The notes under the pieces are model-generated. The model saw only the letters and a list, made by a program, of their open reading frames with translations. It had not been told where the DNA came from and ran no database searches. A program made the translations under genes and the position numbers. Below, piece by piece: positions 5,046 to 61,372 of a DNA stretch of 64,000 bases (position 1 is its first letter; every line of letters starts with the position of its first letter). Source of the stretch: an uncultured Candidatus Binatia bacterium. GTDB lineage: Bacteria > Desulfobacterota > Binatia > UBA9968 > JAJDTQ01. Location of the stretch: contig OZ243916.1 of NCBI GenBank assembly GCA_965213675.1, positions 224,001 to 288,000 of the forward strand, given 5' to 3'.

Positions 5046-6302
5046 ATGACTTTGAGCGAAAACGGACCCCTGACTCCCTATCGTATCCTGGACCTGACCG
5101 ACGAGCTTGGTTTCCTGTGCGGCAAGACGCTGGGCGATCTCGGCGCGGACGTGATCAAGGTGGAGCGTCCGGGGGGCGACGCGGCCCGGCGCATCGGGCC
5201 GTATCTCGACGGCGAGCCCGACCCGGAGAAGAGCCTCTACTGGTTCGCCTTCAACAACAGCAAGCGCGGCATCACGCTGAACCTCGATGCCGGCGAGGGG
5301 CGGGCGCTGTTCAGGCGTCTCGTGGAGAAGGCGGACTTCGTGCTGGAGACGTTCCGGCCGGGCTACCTGGAAGACATCGGCCTCGCCCATGACACCCTGC
5401 GCGCCGTCAACCCCAAGCTTGTGCAGGTCTCCATCACCCCCTTCGGCCAGACCGGCCCTTACAGCCGCTACCACGCCACCGACATCGAGATCATGGCCAT
5501 GAGCGGCTGCATGTCGCTCACCGGCGATCCGGGCAAGCCGCCACTGCGGGTGACTTTCCCCCAGTCCTACCAGTGGACCGGCTCCTACGCCGCCATGGCC
5601 GCGCTGGTGGCCCATACCCAGCGACGGCGCATCGGCAGGGGCGAGCACGTGGACGTGTCCGCCCAGGCATGCATGCTCTGGGGCTTTTCCCACGCACATA
5701 CCTTCTGGGACCTCAACCGCTCGGTGGAAAAGCGCGCCGGCTCGTTCATGACCGGCCGCACCATTACCGGCGCCAAGATGCGGGTCTTCTGGCCGTGCAA
5801 GGACGGCTACCTGAACTTCATCATTTACGGTGGCGAGGCCGGCCGCAAGACCAACCAGGCGCTGGTGGAGTGGATGGCCGAGAAAGGGCAGGCGCCCGCG
5901 TTCCTGCTGGAACGGGACTGGCACACCTTCAACATCGAACGCGTGACCCAGGAAGAGATCGACGTCATGGAAGAACCCATTGCGGCGTTCTTCACCGGTG
6001 TCACCAAGCGGGAGTTCTTCGAGGCCGTCACCAGCCGCGGCATGCTGGGCTATCCCGTGTCCACCGCCGAGGAACTGTTGGAAGACCCGCAACTCGCGGC
6101 TCGGGAGTTCTGGCAGGAGGTGGAACATCCCGAGTTGAACCGTTCCATCACCTATCCGGGAGGGTTCGCCCGCTTCTCGGAATTTCCCTGCCGCATCCGC
6201 CGCCGGGCGCCCCTCATCGGCGAGCACAACGGCGAGGTCTACCGCGAGCTGGGCTTGGACGGCGCAGAGATCGCCCGGCTCGAAGGCTTGGGCGTGATCT
6301 AG
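5046..6302 (+). CDS. class III (CaiB/BaiF) CoA-transferase subunit
   Basis: RILDLT, LGDLGADVIKVERPGGD, NNSKRGITLNL, APLIGEHN. Confidence 0.9.
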   Translation: MTLSENGPLTPYRILDLTDELGFLCGKTLGDLGADVIKVERPGGDAARRIGPYLDGEPDPEKSLYWFAFNNSKRGITLNLDAGEGRALFRRLVEKADFVLETFRPGYLEDIGLAHDTLRAVNPKLVQVSITPFGQTGPYSRYHATDIEIMAMSGCMSLTGDPGKPPLRVTFPQSYQWTGSYAAMAALVAHTQRRRIGRGEHVDVSAQACMLWGFSHAHTFWDLNRSVEKRAGSFMTGRTITGAKMRVFWPCKDGYLNFIIYGGEAGRKTNQALVEWMAEKGQAPAFLLERDWHTFNIERVTQEEIDVMEEPIAAFFTGVTKREFFEAVTSRGMLGYPVSTAEELLEDPQLAAREFWQEVEHPELNRSITYPGGFARFSEFPCRIRRRAPLIGEHNGEVYRELGLDGAEIARLEGLGVI

Positions 6303-6463
6303 TGTGGTGTCTGGTTAATTCGGGTCATAATGTGCGGAGGATTTTTAGTTGTCGGCAAGGCGCGATGACGAGCAGTGGCGGGTACCACGGGAGGAAGAGC
6401 AACGCAGCCGACGGCGAAAAAGACCCGCAGATTATGACCCGAATTAACCAGACACCACACTAG
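6299..6463 (+). mobile_element. F1 MITE-like element, copy 1 (165 bp)
   Basis: 39-bp terminal inverted repeat CTAGTGTGGTGTCTGGTTAATTCGGGTCATAAT(G/C)TGCGG with one mismatch; CTAG at both ends. Confidence 0.9.
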
Positions 6464-6570
6464 CAGCCTGCGCCGCGAAGCCGGGGGGCGCCATTCTGGC
6501 GGTGACGAATTGGCGCAGGCAATCGATCAGAGGTTCCCCGGCTCGATGAATTCATGGGAATGAGAGCGAC

Positions 6571-7785
6571 ATGAAAGCACTGGAAGGTCTCAAGGTTGTG
6601 GAGTTCGCCGCGTTCGCGGCCGGGCCGGTGGTGGGCAAGCACCTGGTGGACCAGGGCGCCACGGTGGTGCACATCGAGTCGCACACCCGTCCGGACGGGT
6701 TCCGCACGCATTATCCGCCCTACAAGGACAACATCCATGGGCTCAACCGCTCGGGCCTGTTCGCGCTGTGCAACAGCGAGAAACTGGGCATCACCCTCAA
6801 TCTCAAGAAGGGACCCGAGGCCACCGCGCTGGCCAAGCGAATCGCGGGTTGGGCGGACATTGTGGTGGAGAACTTCAGCCCCGGCACCATGGGGCGGCTG
6901 GGCTTGGGGTACGACGCGCTGAAGGAAGTCAACCCGCGGCTCATCATGCTGAGCAGTTCGAACCTGGGCCAGAGCGGCCCCCACGCGCACCATCCCGGTT
7001 TCGGCTCCCAGCTTTCGTCCCTGGCCGGCTTCACCAATCTTACCGGCTACCGGGACGGCTCCCCCCAGATCCTTTACGGCCCCTACATCGACTACATCGC
7101 CGTGGGCTACGGCGTGGTGGCCGTGCTGGCGGCCCTGGAGTACCGCGACGCCACCGGCCGCGGCCAGCACATCGACCTGGCGCAGTACGAGACCGGCCTC
7201 CAGTACATCGGGCCGCTGCTGCTGGACTACACCGTCAACGGCCGTATCGCCGTGCGCGACGGCAACCGGCACCCGGAGGCTTCACCCCACGGCGCCTTCC
7301 CGTGCGCGGGAGAAGACCAATGGTGCGTGCTCAGCGTGGCGTCCGATGCGCAGTGGCGCGCCCTGTGCCAGGCCATGGACCGCCCCGACTGGGGCGGGCG
7401 CGACGAGTACGCCACGGCCGCGCGCCGGCGCGCCCGCGCCGACGAGCTGGAAGCGCGCATCGGGGAGTGGACGCGGCAGTTCAAGGCGCGGGAACTGGTG
7501 GAGACGCTCCAGGCCGCGGGCGTCCCCGCGGGCATGGTCCACGGAATGGAGCAGATCTACGACGACCCCCAACTCGTGCACCGCGATCAGTGGAACCGCA
7601 TGGAACACGCCGAGATCGGCGCTATGTCCTACCAGCGCGCCCCCTTCACCCTGTCCGAAAGCGCCGGCGGCCCCGACCACCCGGACCCGCTCCTGGGCGA
7701 GCACAACGCCTACTTCTACCGCGACCTGCTGGGCCTTTCGGAGGCGGAATTCGAGGCGCTCACCCAAGCGGGGATCATTGACTAG
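6571..7785 (+). CDS. class III (CaiB/BaiF) CoA-transferase subunit
   Basis: ALEGLKVVEF, ADIVVENFSPGTMGRLGLGY, PYIDY, PLLGEHN. Confidence 0.9.
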   Translation: MKALEGLKVVEFAAFAAGPVVGKHLVDQGATVVHIESHTRPDGFRTHYPPYKDNIHGLNRSGLFALCNSEKLGITLNLKKGPEATALAKRIAGWADIVVENFSPGTMGRLGLGYDALKEVNPRLIMLSSSNLGQSGPHAHHPGFGSQLSSLAGFTNLTGYRDGSPQILYGPYIDYIAVGYGVVAVLAALEYRDATGRGQHIDLAQYETGLQYIGPLLLDYTVNGRIAVRDGNRHPEASPHGAFPCAGEDQWCVLSVASDAQWRALCQAMDRPDWGGRDEYATAARRRARADELEARIGEWTRQFKARELVETLQAAGVPAGMVHGMEQIYDDPQLVHRDQWNRMEHAEIGAMSYQRAPFTLSESAGGPDHPDPLLGEHNAYFYRDLLGLSEAEFEALTQAGIID

Positions 7786-7918
7786 CGAGGTTACGCTTCG
7801 GACCGACGAGTCCTGGAATCGTGATTTTGGAGTCAAGCTCCGATGAATCAAGGGTTCTGTTGTCCTGTTCGGTGATTCGCGCGGCGGCGGGAATCTTGAA
7901 GGAGCGGAAGGGGAGCCC

Positions 7919-59633: not shown

Positions 59634-60299
59634 ATGCGTATCATCTTGTTGGGACCGCCTGGAGCGGGCAAGGGGACGCAGGCCGTCTCCATCGCGACAG
59701 CCTTCGGCATTCCGCAGATTTCCACGGGTGAAATGTTGCGCGCCGCGGTCAAGGACGGCACGGCGCTGGGTGCGCGCGTCAAGGCCGTGATGGATGCGGG
59801 CGCGCTCGTGTCCGACGATGTCATCGTGGAACTCATCAGGGAACGGATTCAGGCGCCGGATTGCCGCGACGGCTTCCTGTTCGACGGCTTCCCGAGGACG
59901 CTGGCCCAGGCCCAGGCGCTGCGCGACAACGGCATCGCCGTCACCCATGTGGTGGAGATCGACGTGCCGCCGGAGGAAGTGGTCGCGCGCTTGAGCGGGC
60001 GGCGCGTGCATCCCGCATCGGGGCGTATCTATCACGTAGTTTTCAATCCCCCGAAGACCGCGGACAAGGACGACGTCACCGGGGAGGATCTCGTGCAGCG
60101 GGACGACGACAGGGAAGAGACCGTTCGGCGGCGGCTCGACGTGTACGCCGAACAGACCGCGCCGCTGGTGGACTACTACGCCCGCTGGCGCGCCCGGGAG
60201 GGTACGGCCGCGCCCCGCTGCATCAAGGTCACGGGCGTGGGTCCGGCGGAGGAGGTGAGGCAGGCAATCCTGGCGCAATTCGCCGGGGAGGCGTCGTGA
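59634..60299 (+). CDS. adk: adenylate kinase
   Basis: [31 protein letters not shown] domain, QRDDD.EETV. Confidence 0.96.
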
Positions 60300-61051
60300 G
60301 CGTGCATCCGCGGGTGAGCGCCGGCGACTTCGACGCGGTGCTCTTCGACCTCGACGGCGTGCTGACCTCCACGGCGCGGGTCCACTCGGTGTGCTGGAAG
60401 AGGATGTTCGACGCCTTTCTCCAACGCCGCGCCCTGGAGACCAGCACCGCCTTCGTTCCCTTCGATGGGGACGGCGACTACAAGCAATACGTGGACGGCA
60501 AGCCGCGCTATGACGGGGTGCGGAGCTTCCTCGGCTCCCGCGGCATCGAACTGCCCTACGGCGACCCGGAAGACCCTCCGGGCAAGCTGACCGCGTGTGG
60601 GCTCGGCAACCGCAAGGACCGGCTGTTCAAGGATGTGCTGCGCGAAGAGGGCGTGGAGGCGTTCGAGGGGACGATTCGCTGGGCCCGGGAATTGCGCCGC
60701 CGCGGCATCAAGACCGCGGTGGTCTCGTCGAGCAAGAACTGCAAGGCGATCATGGAGGCCGCCGCCATCGAGGACCTGTTCGACACCCGCGTGGACGGCG
60801 AGATCGCCCAGCGGCTCAAGATTGCCGGCAAGCCCGCGCCGGACACCTACCTCAAGGCGGCCGCGGAACTGGGCGTGGAGCCGCCAAGGGCCGTGGTGGT
60901 GGAAGACGCGCTCTCGGGCGTGCAGGCCGGCCGCCGCGGCGGCTTCGGACTGGTGATCGGGGTGGACCGGCACGGCGACGCCAGCGCCCTGCGCGAGAAC
61001 GGCGCCGACATCGTCGTGGCCGACCTGGCGGAGATGCTGGAGGAATACTAG
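60296..61051 (+). CDS. beta-phosphoglucomutase family HAD hydrolase
   Basis: [42 protein letters not shown]. Confidence 0.88.
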
Positions 61052-61212
61052 TGTGGTGTCTGGTTAATTCGCGTCATAATCTGCGGGTCTTTTTCGCCGT
61101 CGGCTACGTTGCTCTTCCTCGCGTGGTACACGCCACTGCTCGTCATCGCGCCTTGCCGACAACAAAAAATCCTCCGCAGATTATGACGCGAATTAACCAG
61201 ACACCACACTAG
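61048..61212 (-). mobile_element. F1 MITE-like element, copy 5 (165 bp)
   Basis: Perfect 39-bp terminal inverted repeat; left CTAG contains the HAD gene stop. Confidence 0.92.
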
Positions 61213-61372
61213 TAGCTTGCGCCGCAGGACTTCACGGCTGCAAATCCGCTCTCATCCGTCCCTTCGGCCGCTCGATCTCGTCAAATCTGACCTGATATTC
61301 TCCTCAATCGACCAGCCGAAGGGACGGCGATAGCGAATTTTCGCTTTCGCGAATTCCTGCGGCGCAAGCTCC
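61209..61372 (-). mobile_element. F2 MITE-like element sharing a CTAG with F1 copy 5
   Basis: Reverse-complement homolog of 47984-48144. Confidence 0.85.

What the first reader, a model, noticed from the sequence alone, without database searches (positions are those of the whole stretch)
6299..61372. Two repeat families with unrelated ends share a strand-specific GACGA/GAGGA tandem-G.A internal loop
Seen: F1 and F2 have different terminal repeats, but both fold into one long hairpin with the same opposed pentamers. F2 (about 48044-48083) reads TCGATT-GAGGA-GAATAT-caggtc-ATATTT-GACGA-AATCGA. F1, read from the minus strand of copies 4 and 5, has T-GACGA-GC(A)GTGG-cgtgta-CCACGC-GAGGA. Antiparallel GACGA/GAGGA gives G.A, A.G, C-G, G.A, A.G. 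Outer F1 stem mismatches (GTTGTCGGC/GCCGACGGC) are G.U wobbles only on that same strand. Established: tandem sheared G.A pairs are stable in RNA and ssDNA and underlie kink-turn-type protein-binding motifs. From memory, ERIC elements carry an AAGGCG...CAACGCA core like F1's GGCAAGGCG...CAACGCAGCC; this needs verification. Inference: these are not inert MITEs but carriers of a conserved single-stranded structural module (RNA processing or stability, protein docking, or recognition during ssDNA/RNA-mediated mobilisation) that has been recruited by different termini.
Basis: partly seen in the sequence, partly recalled or inferred. Interest (0 to 1): 0.75.

Follow-up and report, generated by a model that had tools for sequence, protein, structure and literature searches.

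The report
MITEs sharing a conserved purine-ladder hairpin
Small jumping DNA elements in this bacterium, and relatives of them in several other bacterial phyla, all carry one strand-specific folded core held together by unusual G-A pairs, which suggests the core does a job of its own rather than being junk.

Summary
F1 and F2 are ~165-bp MITEs flanked by C-TA-G (79 and 30 full copies in the genome). A third family, F3 (36 copies), carries the same GAGGA/GACGA loop. The F2/F3 centre belongs to a MITE superfamily with IS1182/IS5-like tips, found in records of several phyla. Its loop consensus is 5'-GAGG(C/A) opposite (A/G)ACGA-3', read as G.A, A.G, G-C, G.A, N.A. The flanking stems covary (score 0.55 against 0.18 shuffled, 0 of 500 shuffles as high).

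F1 holds a second core type: three tandem G.A steps, each separated by one Watson-Crick pair. This core is almost invariant across 36 copies from the genus, although the terminal repeats vary about 7-fold more and the apical loop drifts. Two metagenome elements carry the same core between IS1182-type tips.

Mismatches across whole elements favour one strand (R.R 283 against Y.Y 94; G.T 139 against A.C 72).

Elements often sit exactly on TAG stop codons. In those cases the G.A strand is the mRNA strand in 21 of 27 (this genome) and 17 of 25 (relatives).

No homology with kink-turns, ERIC or any Rfam family was supported. The function is not shown; a 3'-UTR RNA hairpin module is my preferred reading.

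An earlier scan note on this genome had already called this MITE type IS630-like.

The parts
6299..6463 (+). F1 copy 1 (strand given = G.A strand). GACGA is at 6367-6371 and GAGGA at 6391-6395. Its first TAG (6300-6302) is the stop of ORF 5046-6302.
20168..20319 (-). F1 copy 2, with the apical stem-loop deleted and the right repeat damaged. It abuts the IS remnant.
20719..20886 (-). F1 copy 3 (3-nt insertion next to the apical stem)
23933..24097 (-). F1 copy 4
61048..61212 (-). F1 copy 5. The core is at 61095-61160. On the + strand, TCCTC is at 61116-61120 and TCGTC at 61140-61144. TAG 61049-61051 is the stop of ORF 59861-61051.
47984..48147 (+). F2 copy. The central hairpin is at 48047-48086 (GAGGA 48053-48057, GACGA 48076-48080). 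TAG 47984-47986 is the stop of ORF 46601-47986.
61210..61372 (-). F2 copy that abuts F1 copy 5 at a shared TAG. On the + strand, TCGTC is at 61278-61282 and TCCTC at 61301-61305.
52073..52141 (.). Short F2 derivative (about 59 bp between the CTAGs) that keeps both terminal repeats but lacks the central hairpin. At least 5 loci in the genome share the same junction.
3512..3569 (.). Remnant of an F2 right end
20307..20487 (-). Solo right end of the IS1182/IS5-like insertion sequence whose full copy lies at G000:C21:55825-57351. Its tip (CTAGGAGCCTGTCCGAGTA) is of the same class as the F2/F3 tips.

Best explanation
What it is (shown). F1, F2 and F3 are non-autonomous DDE-transposon derivatives (MITEs of about 165 bp, flanked by C-TA-G). 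Each is built as terminal repeats, then paired arms, then a conserved core hairpin. The GACGA/GAGGA 'loop' belongs to a purine ladder: tandem G.A / A.G oppositions bracketing single Watson-Crick pairs. There are two core types.

Type A (F2, F3) has the form outer stem, 5'-GAGG(C/A), inner stem ending ..ATAG, a 3-6 nt loop, CTAT.., (A/G)ACGA-3', outer stem. It is found with many IS1182/IS5-like terminal-repeat variants in records of several phyla.

Type B (F1) has three G.A steps. In this genus it is found with IS630-like tips, and in two metagenome contigs with IS1182-like tips.

One strand is under purifying selection for its fold. The stems covary, the non-paired purines are kept, the apical loop drifts, and the mismatches along the whole element are those tolerated on that strand (G.A, G.T).

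How it most likely works (inferred). CTAG is about 13-fold depleted in this GC-rich genome, so the elements often land on TAG stop codons in a C-TAG context. The junction TA + G rebuilds the stop. The element is then transcribed as the 3' UTR of the gene. In the favoured orientation the G.A strand is in the mRNA and folds into a very stable, irregular hairpin straight after the stop codon. I propose that this RNA hairpin, with the purine ladder as a rigid non-helical platform or protein docking site, makes the insertion harmless or useful to the host transcript, for example by protecting or insulating the 3' end. MITE lineages that carry such a core would then persist and could swap termini to use other transposases.

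The structure, its conservation and its modularity are shown. The RNA form, the protective role and any protein partner are inferred.
For: Copies: 79 full F1 and 30 full F2 (138 and 96 loci with fragments), and 36 F3.

F2 and F3 centres are homologous.

They are multi-copy in records titled Candidatus Binatia, Pseudomonadales, Thiotrichales, Azotimanducus, Woeseia, Hydrocarboniphaga, Coxiellaceae and other Gammaproteobacteria, and also in Muribaculaceae (3), Spirochaetales (2) and Victivallis (2).

Of 86 non-redundant ones, 61 parsed as a clean central hairpin. The 22 with a 5x5 loop show G.A 21/22, A.G 21/22, G-C 18/22 (plus A-T and C-G), and G.A 19/22, with 18 distinct outer stems and 14 distinct inner stems.

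Covariation on 58 centres: 18 of 19 pairs have compensatory changes. Paired cells are 87.1% against 63.7% shuffled. The covariation score is 0.55 against 0.18 (0 of 500 shuffles as high), and slid controls give 0.10-0.21.

Strand asymmetry outside the centre that was used for orienting: R.R 283 against Y.Y 94 (71 against 10 elements), and G.T 139 against A.C 72. Whole-element RNA energy is -95.4 against -85.7 kcal/mol, with the purine strand lower in 58 of 72. F2 centre: -19.9 (z -4.4) against -6.5 on the other strand. F1 core: -24.3 against -19.9, and the minimum-energy fold is the G.A ladder.

F1 in the genus: present in 22 of 24 other genomes of the genus and 0 of 16 genomes of other genera in the order. 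In 36 copies the minor-allele fraction is 0.02 in the core against 0.15-0.16 in the terminal repeats. The apical loop has 10 distinct hexamers against 1-3 in other core windows. L143 and L256 carry the type B core between AGGAGCCTGTC tips.

Stop codons: CTAG is seen 1143 times against about 14527 expected. Elements on a TAG stop of a long GC3-rich ORF: in G000, 21 sense against 6 antisense out of 143 elements (p 0.006). Among 66 non-redundant F1 loci drawn from the loci fetched (15 other genus genomes): 17 sense against 8 antisense (p 0.11).
Against: No RNA data: no RNA run holds the stretch, so transcription, folding and any effect on mRNA are untested.

The orientation bias is only about 2-3 to 1. 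It rests on crude ORF calls, the replicate alone is not significant, and some loci may be orthologous between genomes. In tandem gene contexts within 400 nt there is no bias (28 sense of 50). Most copies (116 of 143 in G000) are not on a called stop codon.

F1's 39-bp perfect terminal stem would be an RNase III substrate (established knowledge for Correia elements; passages of PMC10969869), which does not fit simple 'protection'.

Conservation across families and phyla is what selection on the element's own spread would give, which favours a role in mobilisation.

The sequences compared are relatives, so the shuffle and sign tests overstate independence.

G.A and G.T pairs are stable in single-stranded DNA as well, so the sequence evidence does not separate RNA from ssDNA.
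Confidence: 0.5

Rival explanations
1. The core acts as single-stranded DNA (or as an extruded hairpin) during mobilisation or replication. It would be a cis-acting enhancer that a transposase or a host factor recognises on one strand, helping a 165-bp element bring its two ends together or be copied.
For: The core is kept while the terminal repeats are swapped, and it recurs across phyla, as expected for selection on spread. Length is held at 164-165 bp in 72 of 122 tip-ascertained elements. G.A and G.T are also stable in DNA hairpins (established). The F1 G.A strand lies on the lagging-strand side in 46 of 74 copies (p 0.047).
Against: The full IS1182/IS5-like element with the same tips (C21:55825-57351) has no such hairpin. 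Core-less F2 derivatives with intact ends share one junction at 5 or more loci. The same loop serves termini of two unrelated transposase families. F2 and F3 show no replication-strand bias (12/28, 19/33). No ssDNA step is known for IS630 or IS5/IS1182 transposition (recalled).
Confidence: 0.2
2. The conserved centre works as double-stranded DNA. It could be a bendable, AT-rich hinge with phased A/T tracts, or a site for a DNA-binding protein that reads the two GA(G/C)GA words as direct repeats.
For: The consensus of 58 centres has T-tracts and A-tracts about 10-11 nt apart on each arm and an AT-rich ..ATAG/CTAT.. centre. Correia elements carry an IHF site (passages of PMC2229807 and PMC10969869).
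Against: Duplex DNA gives no reason for G.T over A.C (139 against 72) or R.R over Y.Y (283 against 94) on one strand along the whole element. It also gives no reason for compensatory changes that keep the lone G-C pair inside the loop (42 GC, 6 CG, 3 AU, 4 GU of 58). By eye I found no IHF consensus (WATCAANNNNTTR, recalled) in the F2 or F3 centres.
Confidence: 0.12
3. There is no function. The shared loop is inherited from a common ancestral MITE or is a coincidence, and palindromy is kept by arm-to-arm templated repair and recent amplification from master copies.
For: Copies within one genome are young (most F1a copies are over 95% alike). Hybrids between F1 subfamilies show recombination. 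The exact pentamers are rare in the tip-ascertained sample (6 of 122). Arm-to-arm correction is a known process in inverted repeats (recalled).
Against: The apical loop and the terminal repeats drift while the unpaired purines of the core do not. Templated repair would erase mismatches rather than keep purine-purine ones on one strand in 71 of 81 elements. Control pentamer pairs give 0-3 against 45.
Confidence: 0.1
4. The loop is a kink-turn-type motif bound by an L7Ae/YbxF-like protein.
For: Tandem G.A next to a Watson-Crick pair is the core of a kink-turn (established).
Against: There is no 3-nt bulge. Loops are symmetric 5x5, or 2x2 ladders. Three Rfam scans found no family hit.
Confidence: 0.04

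Closest known systems
ERIC / IRU elements of Enterobacteria (127-bp TA-flanked imperfect palindromes)
   Same: Both are whole-length imperfect hairpins that sit at the 3' ends of genes and are co-transcribed. ERIC has an orientation-dependent effect on the upstream mRNA (De Gregorio 2005, as summarised in passages of PMC2229807 and PMC10969869). Both arms carry purine-rich unpaired words.
   Different: There is no detectable sequence homology. The elements here are 165 bp rather than 127 bp and come from other phyla. No G.A ladder or cross-phylum core has been described for ERIC in the passages I read.
Correia/NEMIS (Neisseria) and RUP (S. pneumoniae), classic bacterial MITEs
   Same: All have TA at the termini, terminal inverted repeats, a size of 100-200 bp and long stem-loop transcripts with A-G and U-U mismatches. 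RUP is tied to an IS630-type element (passages of PMC2229807). Insertion next to or into other mobile elements is also shared (F1 abuts F2).
   Different: Their known working parts are promoters, an IHF site and RNase III cleavage at the terminal repeats. Here the conserved part is an internal non-Watson-Crick core that is shared between families with different termini and between phyla.
Tandem sheared G.A motifs of structured RNAs (kink-turn, loop E, hammerhead core)
   Same: All use opposed 5'-GA-3'/5'-GA-3' steps stacked on Watson-Crick pairs. The steps here sit in Y-GA-R contexts (T-GA-G / C-GA-A in type A).
   Different: These loops are symmetric, repeated as a ladder, and lack a 3-nt bulge. 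By eye the hammerhead core CUGANGA..GAAA is not met at two essential positions. No Rfam hit was found.
QMITE2 of Coxiella burnetii
   Same: It is a MITE found mainly in the 3' UTRs of ORFs, with a very stable predicted transcript fold (passages of PMC10969869).
   Different: It has 7-9 bp direct repeats and a different sequence. No conserved purine ladder or stop-codon landing is reported in the passages I read. I did not compare the sequences.

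Membership tests
MITE (non-autonomous derivative of a DDE insertion sequence) | Short, non-coding, many copies | tested here: met
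   The elements are about 165 bp. The genome holds 79 full F1, 30 full F2 and 36 F3 copies, plus fragments.
MITE (non-autonomous derivative of a DDE insertion sequence) | Terminal inverted repeats | tested here: met
   F1 has a 39-bp perfect repeat and F2 about 22 bp.
MITE (non-autonomous derivative of a DDE insertion sequence) | Target-site duplication shown by an empty site | tested here: inconclusive
   Nearly all copies are flanked C-TA-G ... C-TA-G. That pattern fits a TA duplication in CTAG, but no empty site was recovered; contigs break at the repeats.
MITE (non-autonomous derivative of a DDE insertion sequence) | Autonomous element with matching ends | tested here: met
   For the F2/F3 tip class: a 1527-bp IS on C21 with a 428-aa DUF772 + DDE_Tnp_1_6 transposase and ends C-TA-GGAGTCTGTCCGAGTA. 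For F1 the match is partial only (see the next family).
IS630-derived MITE (RUP-like), for F1 | Ends like an IS630-family element and a TA target within CTAG | tested here: inconclusive
   An IS630-family IS on C14 (DDE_3, E 4.7e-29) begins CTAGTGTCACGTCAT. F1b begins CTAGTGTCGTGTCCCG, so only the first 8 nt agree. No IS with full F1 ends was found in G000.
Kink-turn | Three-nucleotide bulge on one strand followed by tandem G.A / A.G | tested here: not met
   The loops are symmetric: 22 are 5x5, 9 are 6x6 and 6 are 3x3 among 61 parsed centres. F1 has a ladder of 2x2 loops.
Kink-turn | Sheared geometry of the G.A pairs and a sharp kink | not testable with these tools
   This needs probing or a solved structure.
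ERIC | Sequence similarity to the ERIC consensus | tested here: not met
   blastn found no match at E<=10. Alignment to a K-12 ERIC copy gives p 0.60 (F1) and 0.18 (F2) against 500 shuffles.
Any Rfam family (ribozymes and K-turn RNAs included) | Covariance-model match | tested here: not met
   In the whole window only a tRNA reached the gathering score. Permissive scans of F1+F2 and of 17 foreign loci gave only sub-threshold miRNA-hairpin matches.
REP/REPIN mobilised by RAYT | Conserved GTAG-type tetranucleotide next to a short hairpin, and a RAYT gene in the genome | not tested
   I did not search for a RAYT gene. The long terminal repeats, the TA flanks and the matching DDE IS argue for DDE mobilisation.

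The most novel reading that the evidence does not exclude
The purine-ladder cores are free-standing structural cassettes that move between transposon scaffolds and between phyla. They would be a new class of cis-acting module carried by MITEs: the docking site for a widely conserved host protein that binds RNA or single-stranded DNA. The module would let the element live on stop codons as a benign or useful 3'-UTR structure, and it would be the true unit of selection, with terminal repeats being exchangeable adaptors.
Probability: 0.3. Interest if true: 0.8.

Novelty: new variant of a known kind. Interest (0 to 1): 0.68.

Why it matters
Bacterial MITEs are usually treated as decayed insertion sequences whose only working parts are their ends. 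Here the ends are the variable part, and an internal non-Watson-Crick core is the conserved part across families, across two transposase types and across phyla. If this holds, three things follow.

First, it gives a concrete motif, testable by mutation, for asking what makes a MITE tolerated or useful. That question has been open since ERIC and Correia.

Second, it points to stop-codon landing, which rebuilds the stop, as a way that mobile DNA colonises GC-rich genomes without harm.

Third, it provides a compact natural RNA/ssDNA fold, a ladder of tandem G.A steps, for structural study.

My four full-text searches and the passages read of two reviews found no description of this core. Subscription journals and ISfinder were not searchable.

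Tried and rejected
Rfam: three scans (window at gathering score; 17 foreign loci and window 60990-61400 at permissive E) gave only a tRNA and sub-threshold miRNA-like hairpin matches.

ERIC homology: rejected.

Hammerhead core: compared by eye with the recalled consensus CUGANGA..GAAA. F1 reads AUGACGA..GAG, so two essential positions differ. Rejected.

Coding: the F1 G.A strand has an ATG-to-terminal-TAG frame of 32 codons (my reading). The core is invariant at all three codon positions while the apical loop changes residues, so I rejected coding.

IHF site, -35/-10 promoter, Shine-Dalgarno plus start codon in the F2 centre: inspected by eye. They are present only in some copies (for example the loop CATGTC) and absent from other families. 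Rejected as general explanations.

RNA evidence: no RNA holder was listed. Laying contigs of X1-X3 and X7 showed only depth spikes and contig breaks at the repeats, with no empty site and nothing from X7.

DNA-parameter folding did not reproduce the hairpins. I take this to reflect the parameter set (my inference) and drew nothing from it.

(type B pattern over 401 genomes of the phylum) was mis-specified: it misses F1 in G000 itself. Its zero is void.

Autonomous IS with F1 ends: none found in G000.

Orientation against flanking genes in tandem contexts: no bias. Orientation against replication: no bias for F2 and F3, marginal for F1.

Thiomargarita MITE paper (PMC4853749; passages): it describes different elements.

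Earlier-scan look-ups by sequence and by words gave nothing on this core.

Not tried: complex prediction, structure tools and protein searches, because no protein partner is known.

Full report
1. WHAT IS AT THE COORDINATES

The window is G000:C1:224001-288000, part of a 4.53-Mb genome of 65.7% G+C.

F1 is a 165-bp element with a perfect 39-bp terminal inverted repeat, flanked C-TA-G on both sides. The window holds five copies: 6299-6463, 20168-20319 (apical stem-loop deleted), 20719-20886, 23933-24097 and 61048-61212.

F2 is about 163 bp with about 22-bp terminal repeats that begin TA-GGAGCTTGCGCCGC. The window holds two full copies (47984-48147, 61210-61372), one short derivative without the centre (52073-52141) and one end remnant (3512-3569).

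The F2 hairpin lies at 48047-48086, 3 nt to the right of the stated place.

On the minus strand of copy 5 the pairing is C-GA-T-GA-C-GA-[GC(A)GTGG cgtgta CCACGC]-GA-G-GA-A-GA-G. This is three tandem G.A/A.G steps, each separated by one Watson-Crick pair. RNA folding returns exactly this ladder as the minimum-energy structure.

2. GENOME-WIDE PICTURE AND CHANCE

BLAST of the elements against the genome gives 138 F1 and 96 F2 loci, of which 79 and 30 are full length.

De novo clustering of a self-BLAST found a third family, F3 (36 full copies). Its ends are CTAGGAGCCTGTCGGG. Its centre, GGATTT-GAGGA-GAATATT-ggt-AATATTG-GACGA-AAATCC, is plainly homologous to the F2 centre.

A structured scan looked for a hairpin with GACGA opposite GAGGA, with at least 5 of 6 pairs in both the inner and outer stems. 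It finds 45 sites. Twelve control pentamer pairs (permuted or altered) give 0-3 each.

Within the genome the pentamer columns deviate from consensus 2.5-3 times less than the rest of the element. For F1 the figures are 1.9% against 6.3%, with the apical loop at 12.0% and the terminal repeats at 8.7%. For F2 they are 2.9% against 7.3%.

3. THE F2/F3 CENTRE BELONGS TO A CROSS-PHYLUM SUPERFAMILY

F2 as a whole was found in only one other genome of the genus, and its centre alone in a second.

I scanned one genome per species for GAGGANAATAT-N3-9-ATATTNGACGA. By my own arithmetic about 8 matches are expected by chance in 596 Gb, so single hits (for example Clostridia or Acidiphilium) may be noise.

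Many records hold several copies, inside elements of about 165 bp that fold end to end. These include records titled Candidatus Binatia (F2-like and F3-like elements), Pseudomonadales, Azotimanducus, Thiotrichales, Woeseia, Hydrocarboniphaga, Coxiellaceae and other Gammaproteobacteria, and also Muribaculaceae, Spirochaetales and Victivallis. Near-identical F2 copies in Binatia records suggest that the window's organism is of that lineage.

The outer stem differs from family to family with changes on both sides: GCGATT/AATCGA, GGATTT/AAATCC, CTGATTT/AAATCAG, GCAAATTT/AAATTTGC and GCGGGCGACC/GGGCGCCCGC. The element tips are variants of TA-GGAGCCTGTC.

4. AN ASCERTAINMENT FREE OF THE MOTIF

To avoid selecting on the loop, I scanned metagenome contigs for the tips alone: AGGAGCCTGTC, then 130-160 nt, then GACAGGCTCCT.

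Only 6 of the 122 have the exact GAGGA..GACGA centre. Even so, most have an internal loop at the same place.

I reduced the set to 86 non-redundant sequences, and 61 of these parsed as a clean central hairpin. Loop sizes were 5x5 in 22, 6x6 in 9 and 3x3 in 6. Smaller or irregular loops made up the rest.

In the 22 5x5 loops the oppositions are as follows:

| Position | Opposition | Count |
|---|---|---|
| 1 | G.A | 21/22 |
| 2 | A.G | 21/22 |
| 3 | G-C | 18/22 (plus one A-T and one C-G) |
| 4 | G.A | 19/22 |
| 5 | C.A | 15 |
| 5 | A.G | 3 |

GAGGC/AACGA is the commonest pair (10 of 22) and GAGGA/GACGA accounts for 3. These 22 have 18 distinct outer stems and 14 distinct inner stems.

On an alignment of 58 centres (57 from this sample plus the window's F2), RNAalifold predicts the outer stem, the lone G-C pair inside the loop, and the inner stem. 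18 of 19 pairs show compensatory changes.

The pair counts give 87.1% paired cells against 63.7% after shuffling, and a covariation score of 0.55 against 0.18 (0 of 500 shuffles as high). Partners slid by 1-3 columns give 0.10-0.21.

Two caveats apply. The sequences are relatives, which inflates such tests. A few rows of the alignment are in the wrong orientation, which works against the result.

5. ONE STRAND IS THE ONE THAT FOLDS

I oriented each of the 86 sequences by the purine content of the mismatches in its central 56 nt only. I then counted mismatches in the arms outside the central 64 nt. Four sequences were ties and were dropped.

- G.T 139 against A.C 72 (binomial p 5e-6). By element the split is 44 against 19.
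- Purine.purine 283 against pyrimidine.pyrimidine 94 (p 4e-23). By element the split is 71 against 10.
- A.G is the commonest mismatch in both the arms and the centre, and GA/GA is the commonest tandem mismatch, with 64 cases.

Predicted RNA energy of whole elements is -95.4 kcal/mol on the purine strand and -85.7 on the other. The purine strand is lower in 58 of 72.

For the window's F2 centre the difference is -19.9 (z -4.4, 0 of 200 shuffles as good) against -6.5 (z -0.7). For the F1 core it is -24.3 against -19.9.

DNA parameters did not reproduce the hairpins, and I draw nothing from them.

Duplex DNA offers no reason for this asymmetry. A single-stranded form, RNA or DNA, does.

6. F1: A SECOND CORE TYPE, KEPT WHILE THE ENDS CHANGE

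F1 occurs in 22 of 24 other genomes of the genus and in none of 16 genomes of other genera of the order.

Inside G000 the F1a and F1b consensus sequences agree at 28/39 and 28/40 positions in the terminal repeats but at 82/85 in the core, and hybrids exist.

I aligned 36 copies: 5 from G000 and 31 from 15 other genomes, picked by me from the hit list to span identities of 84-97%. In these:

- At least 6 terminal-repeat variants occur, with left and right arms changing together.
- The minor-allele fraction is 0.15-0.16 in the repeats and 0.02 in the core.
- The 6-nt apical loop has 10 distinct versions, against 1-3 for other 6-nt windows of the core.

The unpaired words GGCAAGGCGCGATGA and GAGGAAGAGCAACG are as constant as the stems.

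A caveat is that the copies were found by BLAST with the whole element. Hits anchored on the core are therefore favoured.

Two elements of the tip-ascertained metagenome sample (L143, L256) carry a related core between IS1182-type tips: GGCGCGATGAGGGAGC-[other stem]-GTGACCGAAGAGCAACG. The three G.A steps are kept there. The single C-G pair between the first two steps is replaced by two G-C pairs.

The same core type therefore serves two kinds of termini.

7. WHAT MOVES THEM

G000 holds a 1527-bp insertion sequence on C21 with ends C-TA-GGAGTCTGTCCGAGTA. It encodes a 428-aa transposase with DUF772, DDE_Tnp_1_6 and DDE_Tnp_1 domains (E 7e-18 to 3e-13), which is the IS1182/IS5 type. A solo end of it lies in the window at 20307-20487.

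This element has no G.A hairpin.

An IS630-family element with a frameshifted transposase lies on C14. Its ends, CTAGTGTCACGTCAT, share only the first 8 nt with F1b. No insertion sequence with full F1 ends was found in G000.

Short F2 derivatives that keep both ends but lack the centre occur with one and the same junction at 5 or more loci. This could reflect either transposition without the core or recurrent deletion at a microhomology.

These points weaken the idea that the core is needed for mobilisation, though they do not exclude it.

8. WHERE THEY SIT

CTAG is about 13-fold depleted (1143 seen, about 14527 expected from base frequencies), while TAG is the stop of 928 of 2640 crudely called genes.

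In the window, four copies begin exactly on the TAG stop of the upstream ORF: 6300-6302, 47984-47986, 52074-52076 and 61049-61051. Because the element starts with G, the junction TA+G rebuilds the stop. This last point is read from the sequence and is an inference about the insertion event.

I counted elements whose terminal TAG ends an open frame of 80 or more codons with the GC3 pattern of coding DNA:

| Set | Sense (G.A strand = mRNA strand) | Antisense | Total examined | p |
|---|---|---|---|---|
| G000, all families | 21 | 6 | 143 (1 on both sides, 115 on neither) | 0.006 |
| G000, F1 | 14 | 5 | | |
| G000, F2 | 5 | 0 | | |
| G000, F3 | 2 | 1 | | |
| F1 loci from the loci fetched (15 other genus genomes) | 17 | 8 | 66 non-redundant (41 on neither) | 0.11 |

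Pooled, this is 38 of 52 (z about 3.3 by my arithmetic). Some loci may be orthologous between genomes.

Other orientation tests were flat or marginal:

- Tandem gene contexts within 400 nt: 28 sense of 50.
- Replication strand: F1 28 leading against 46 lagging (p 0.047), F2 12/16, F3 19/14.

The bias at stop codons is the only evidence that separates RNA from ssDNA, and it is modest.

9. COMPARISON WITH WHAT IS KNOWN

No Rfam family matches.

The loop is not a kink-turn, because it is symmetric and has no 3-nt bulge.

ERIC is the closest functional analogue. It is a TA-flanked imperfect palindrome at gene 3' ends with an orientation-dependent effect on the upstream mRNA (passages of PMC2229807 and PMC10969869). 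It is not a sequence relative.

Correia and RUP are structural analogues. According to those reviews their known working parts are promoters, an IHF site and RNase III cleavage at the terminal repeats.

Four full-text searches and the passages read found no description of a G.A-ladder core shared between MITE families or phyla. They also found no description of stop-codon landing that rebuilds the stop. The 2024 review does not contain the words 'stop codon', 'CTAG', 'IS1182' or 'IS630'. Subscription journals, ISfinder and supplements were not examined.

I confirm the MITE nature and the flanks. I did not test the island claim.

10. VERDICT

The reading 'a conserved single-stranded module recruited by different termini' is supported by covariation, strand asymmetry, purifying selection relative to the loop and the ends, and recurrence under different termini.

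The kink-turn and ERIC links are not supported.

What the module does is not shown. I favour a 3'-UTR RNA hairpin that makes stop-codon insertions tolerable or useful (about 0.5). A role as ssDNA in mobilisation comes next (0.2), followed by a duplex-DNA hinge or binding site (0.12) and no function (0.1).

Noticed in passing
window 35327-39000 and 39047-39676, inside ORF 34055-41749 (2564 aa): Ten to eleven tandem copies of a 336-nt (112-codon) unit at 80-96% identity, followed by two copies of a 330-nt unit. This is a giant repeat protein whose domains are being homogenised.
   Followed up: no
window 6300-6302, 47984-47986, 52074-52076, 61049-61051; genome-wide: MITEs land on TAG stop codons, and the junction TA+G rebuilds the stop. 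CTAG is about 13-fold depleted in the genome (1143 against about 14527 expected), so stop codons are a main supply of targets.
   Followed up: partly
window 61210-61212; G000:C1:1795491, 3279304, 2315040: F1 and F2 repeatedly abut at a shared CTAG. Each element creates new CTAG targets for the next, so nested or chained MITEs arise.
   Followed up: partly
G000:C1:3214617-3214779, C3:7189-7351 (F2), and two F3 copies: The central hairpin is inverted relative to the arms, so the G.A strand of the centre is opposite to that of the arms. This fits recombination between the outer-stem repeats.
   Followed up: no
flanks of F2/F3 copies genome-wide: Many copies are flanked CCAG or CTGG instead of CTAG, as if the TA of the flank decays by transitions. 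This is reminiscent of very-short-patch repair bias against CTAG (recalled).
   Followed up: no
window 19990-20119 and 20514-20644: A stretch of about 130 bp is duplicated 524 bp apart (99-100% identity). The two copies bracket F1 copy 2 and the IS1182-like end remnant. This looks like a rearrangement scar around mobile DNA.
   Followed up: no
G000 genome-wide, e.g. C1:2243630-2243751, C1:2129505-2129576: A fourth, unrelated repeat family is built on GTCATTCCCGCG.AAGCGGGAATCC palindromes (groups of 28 and 25 regions). It resembles the ATTCCC..GGGAAT repeats of Neisseria (recalled).
   Followed up: no
G000:C14:27100-28330 (L135): An IS630-family element with a two-ORF, frameshifted transposase sits on a contig of 59.7% G+C. 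The assembly has 8% estimated contamination, so this contig may belong to another organism.
   Followed up: partly
window 61048-61212, minus strand: The F1 G.A strand contains an ATG-to-terminal-TAG frame of 32 codons. The core is invariant at all codon positions, which argues against coding.
   Followed up: partly
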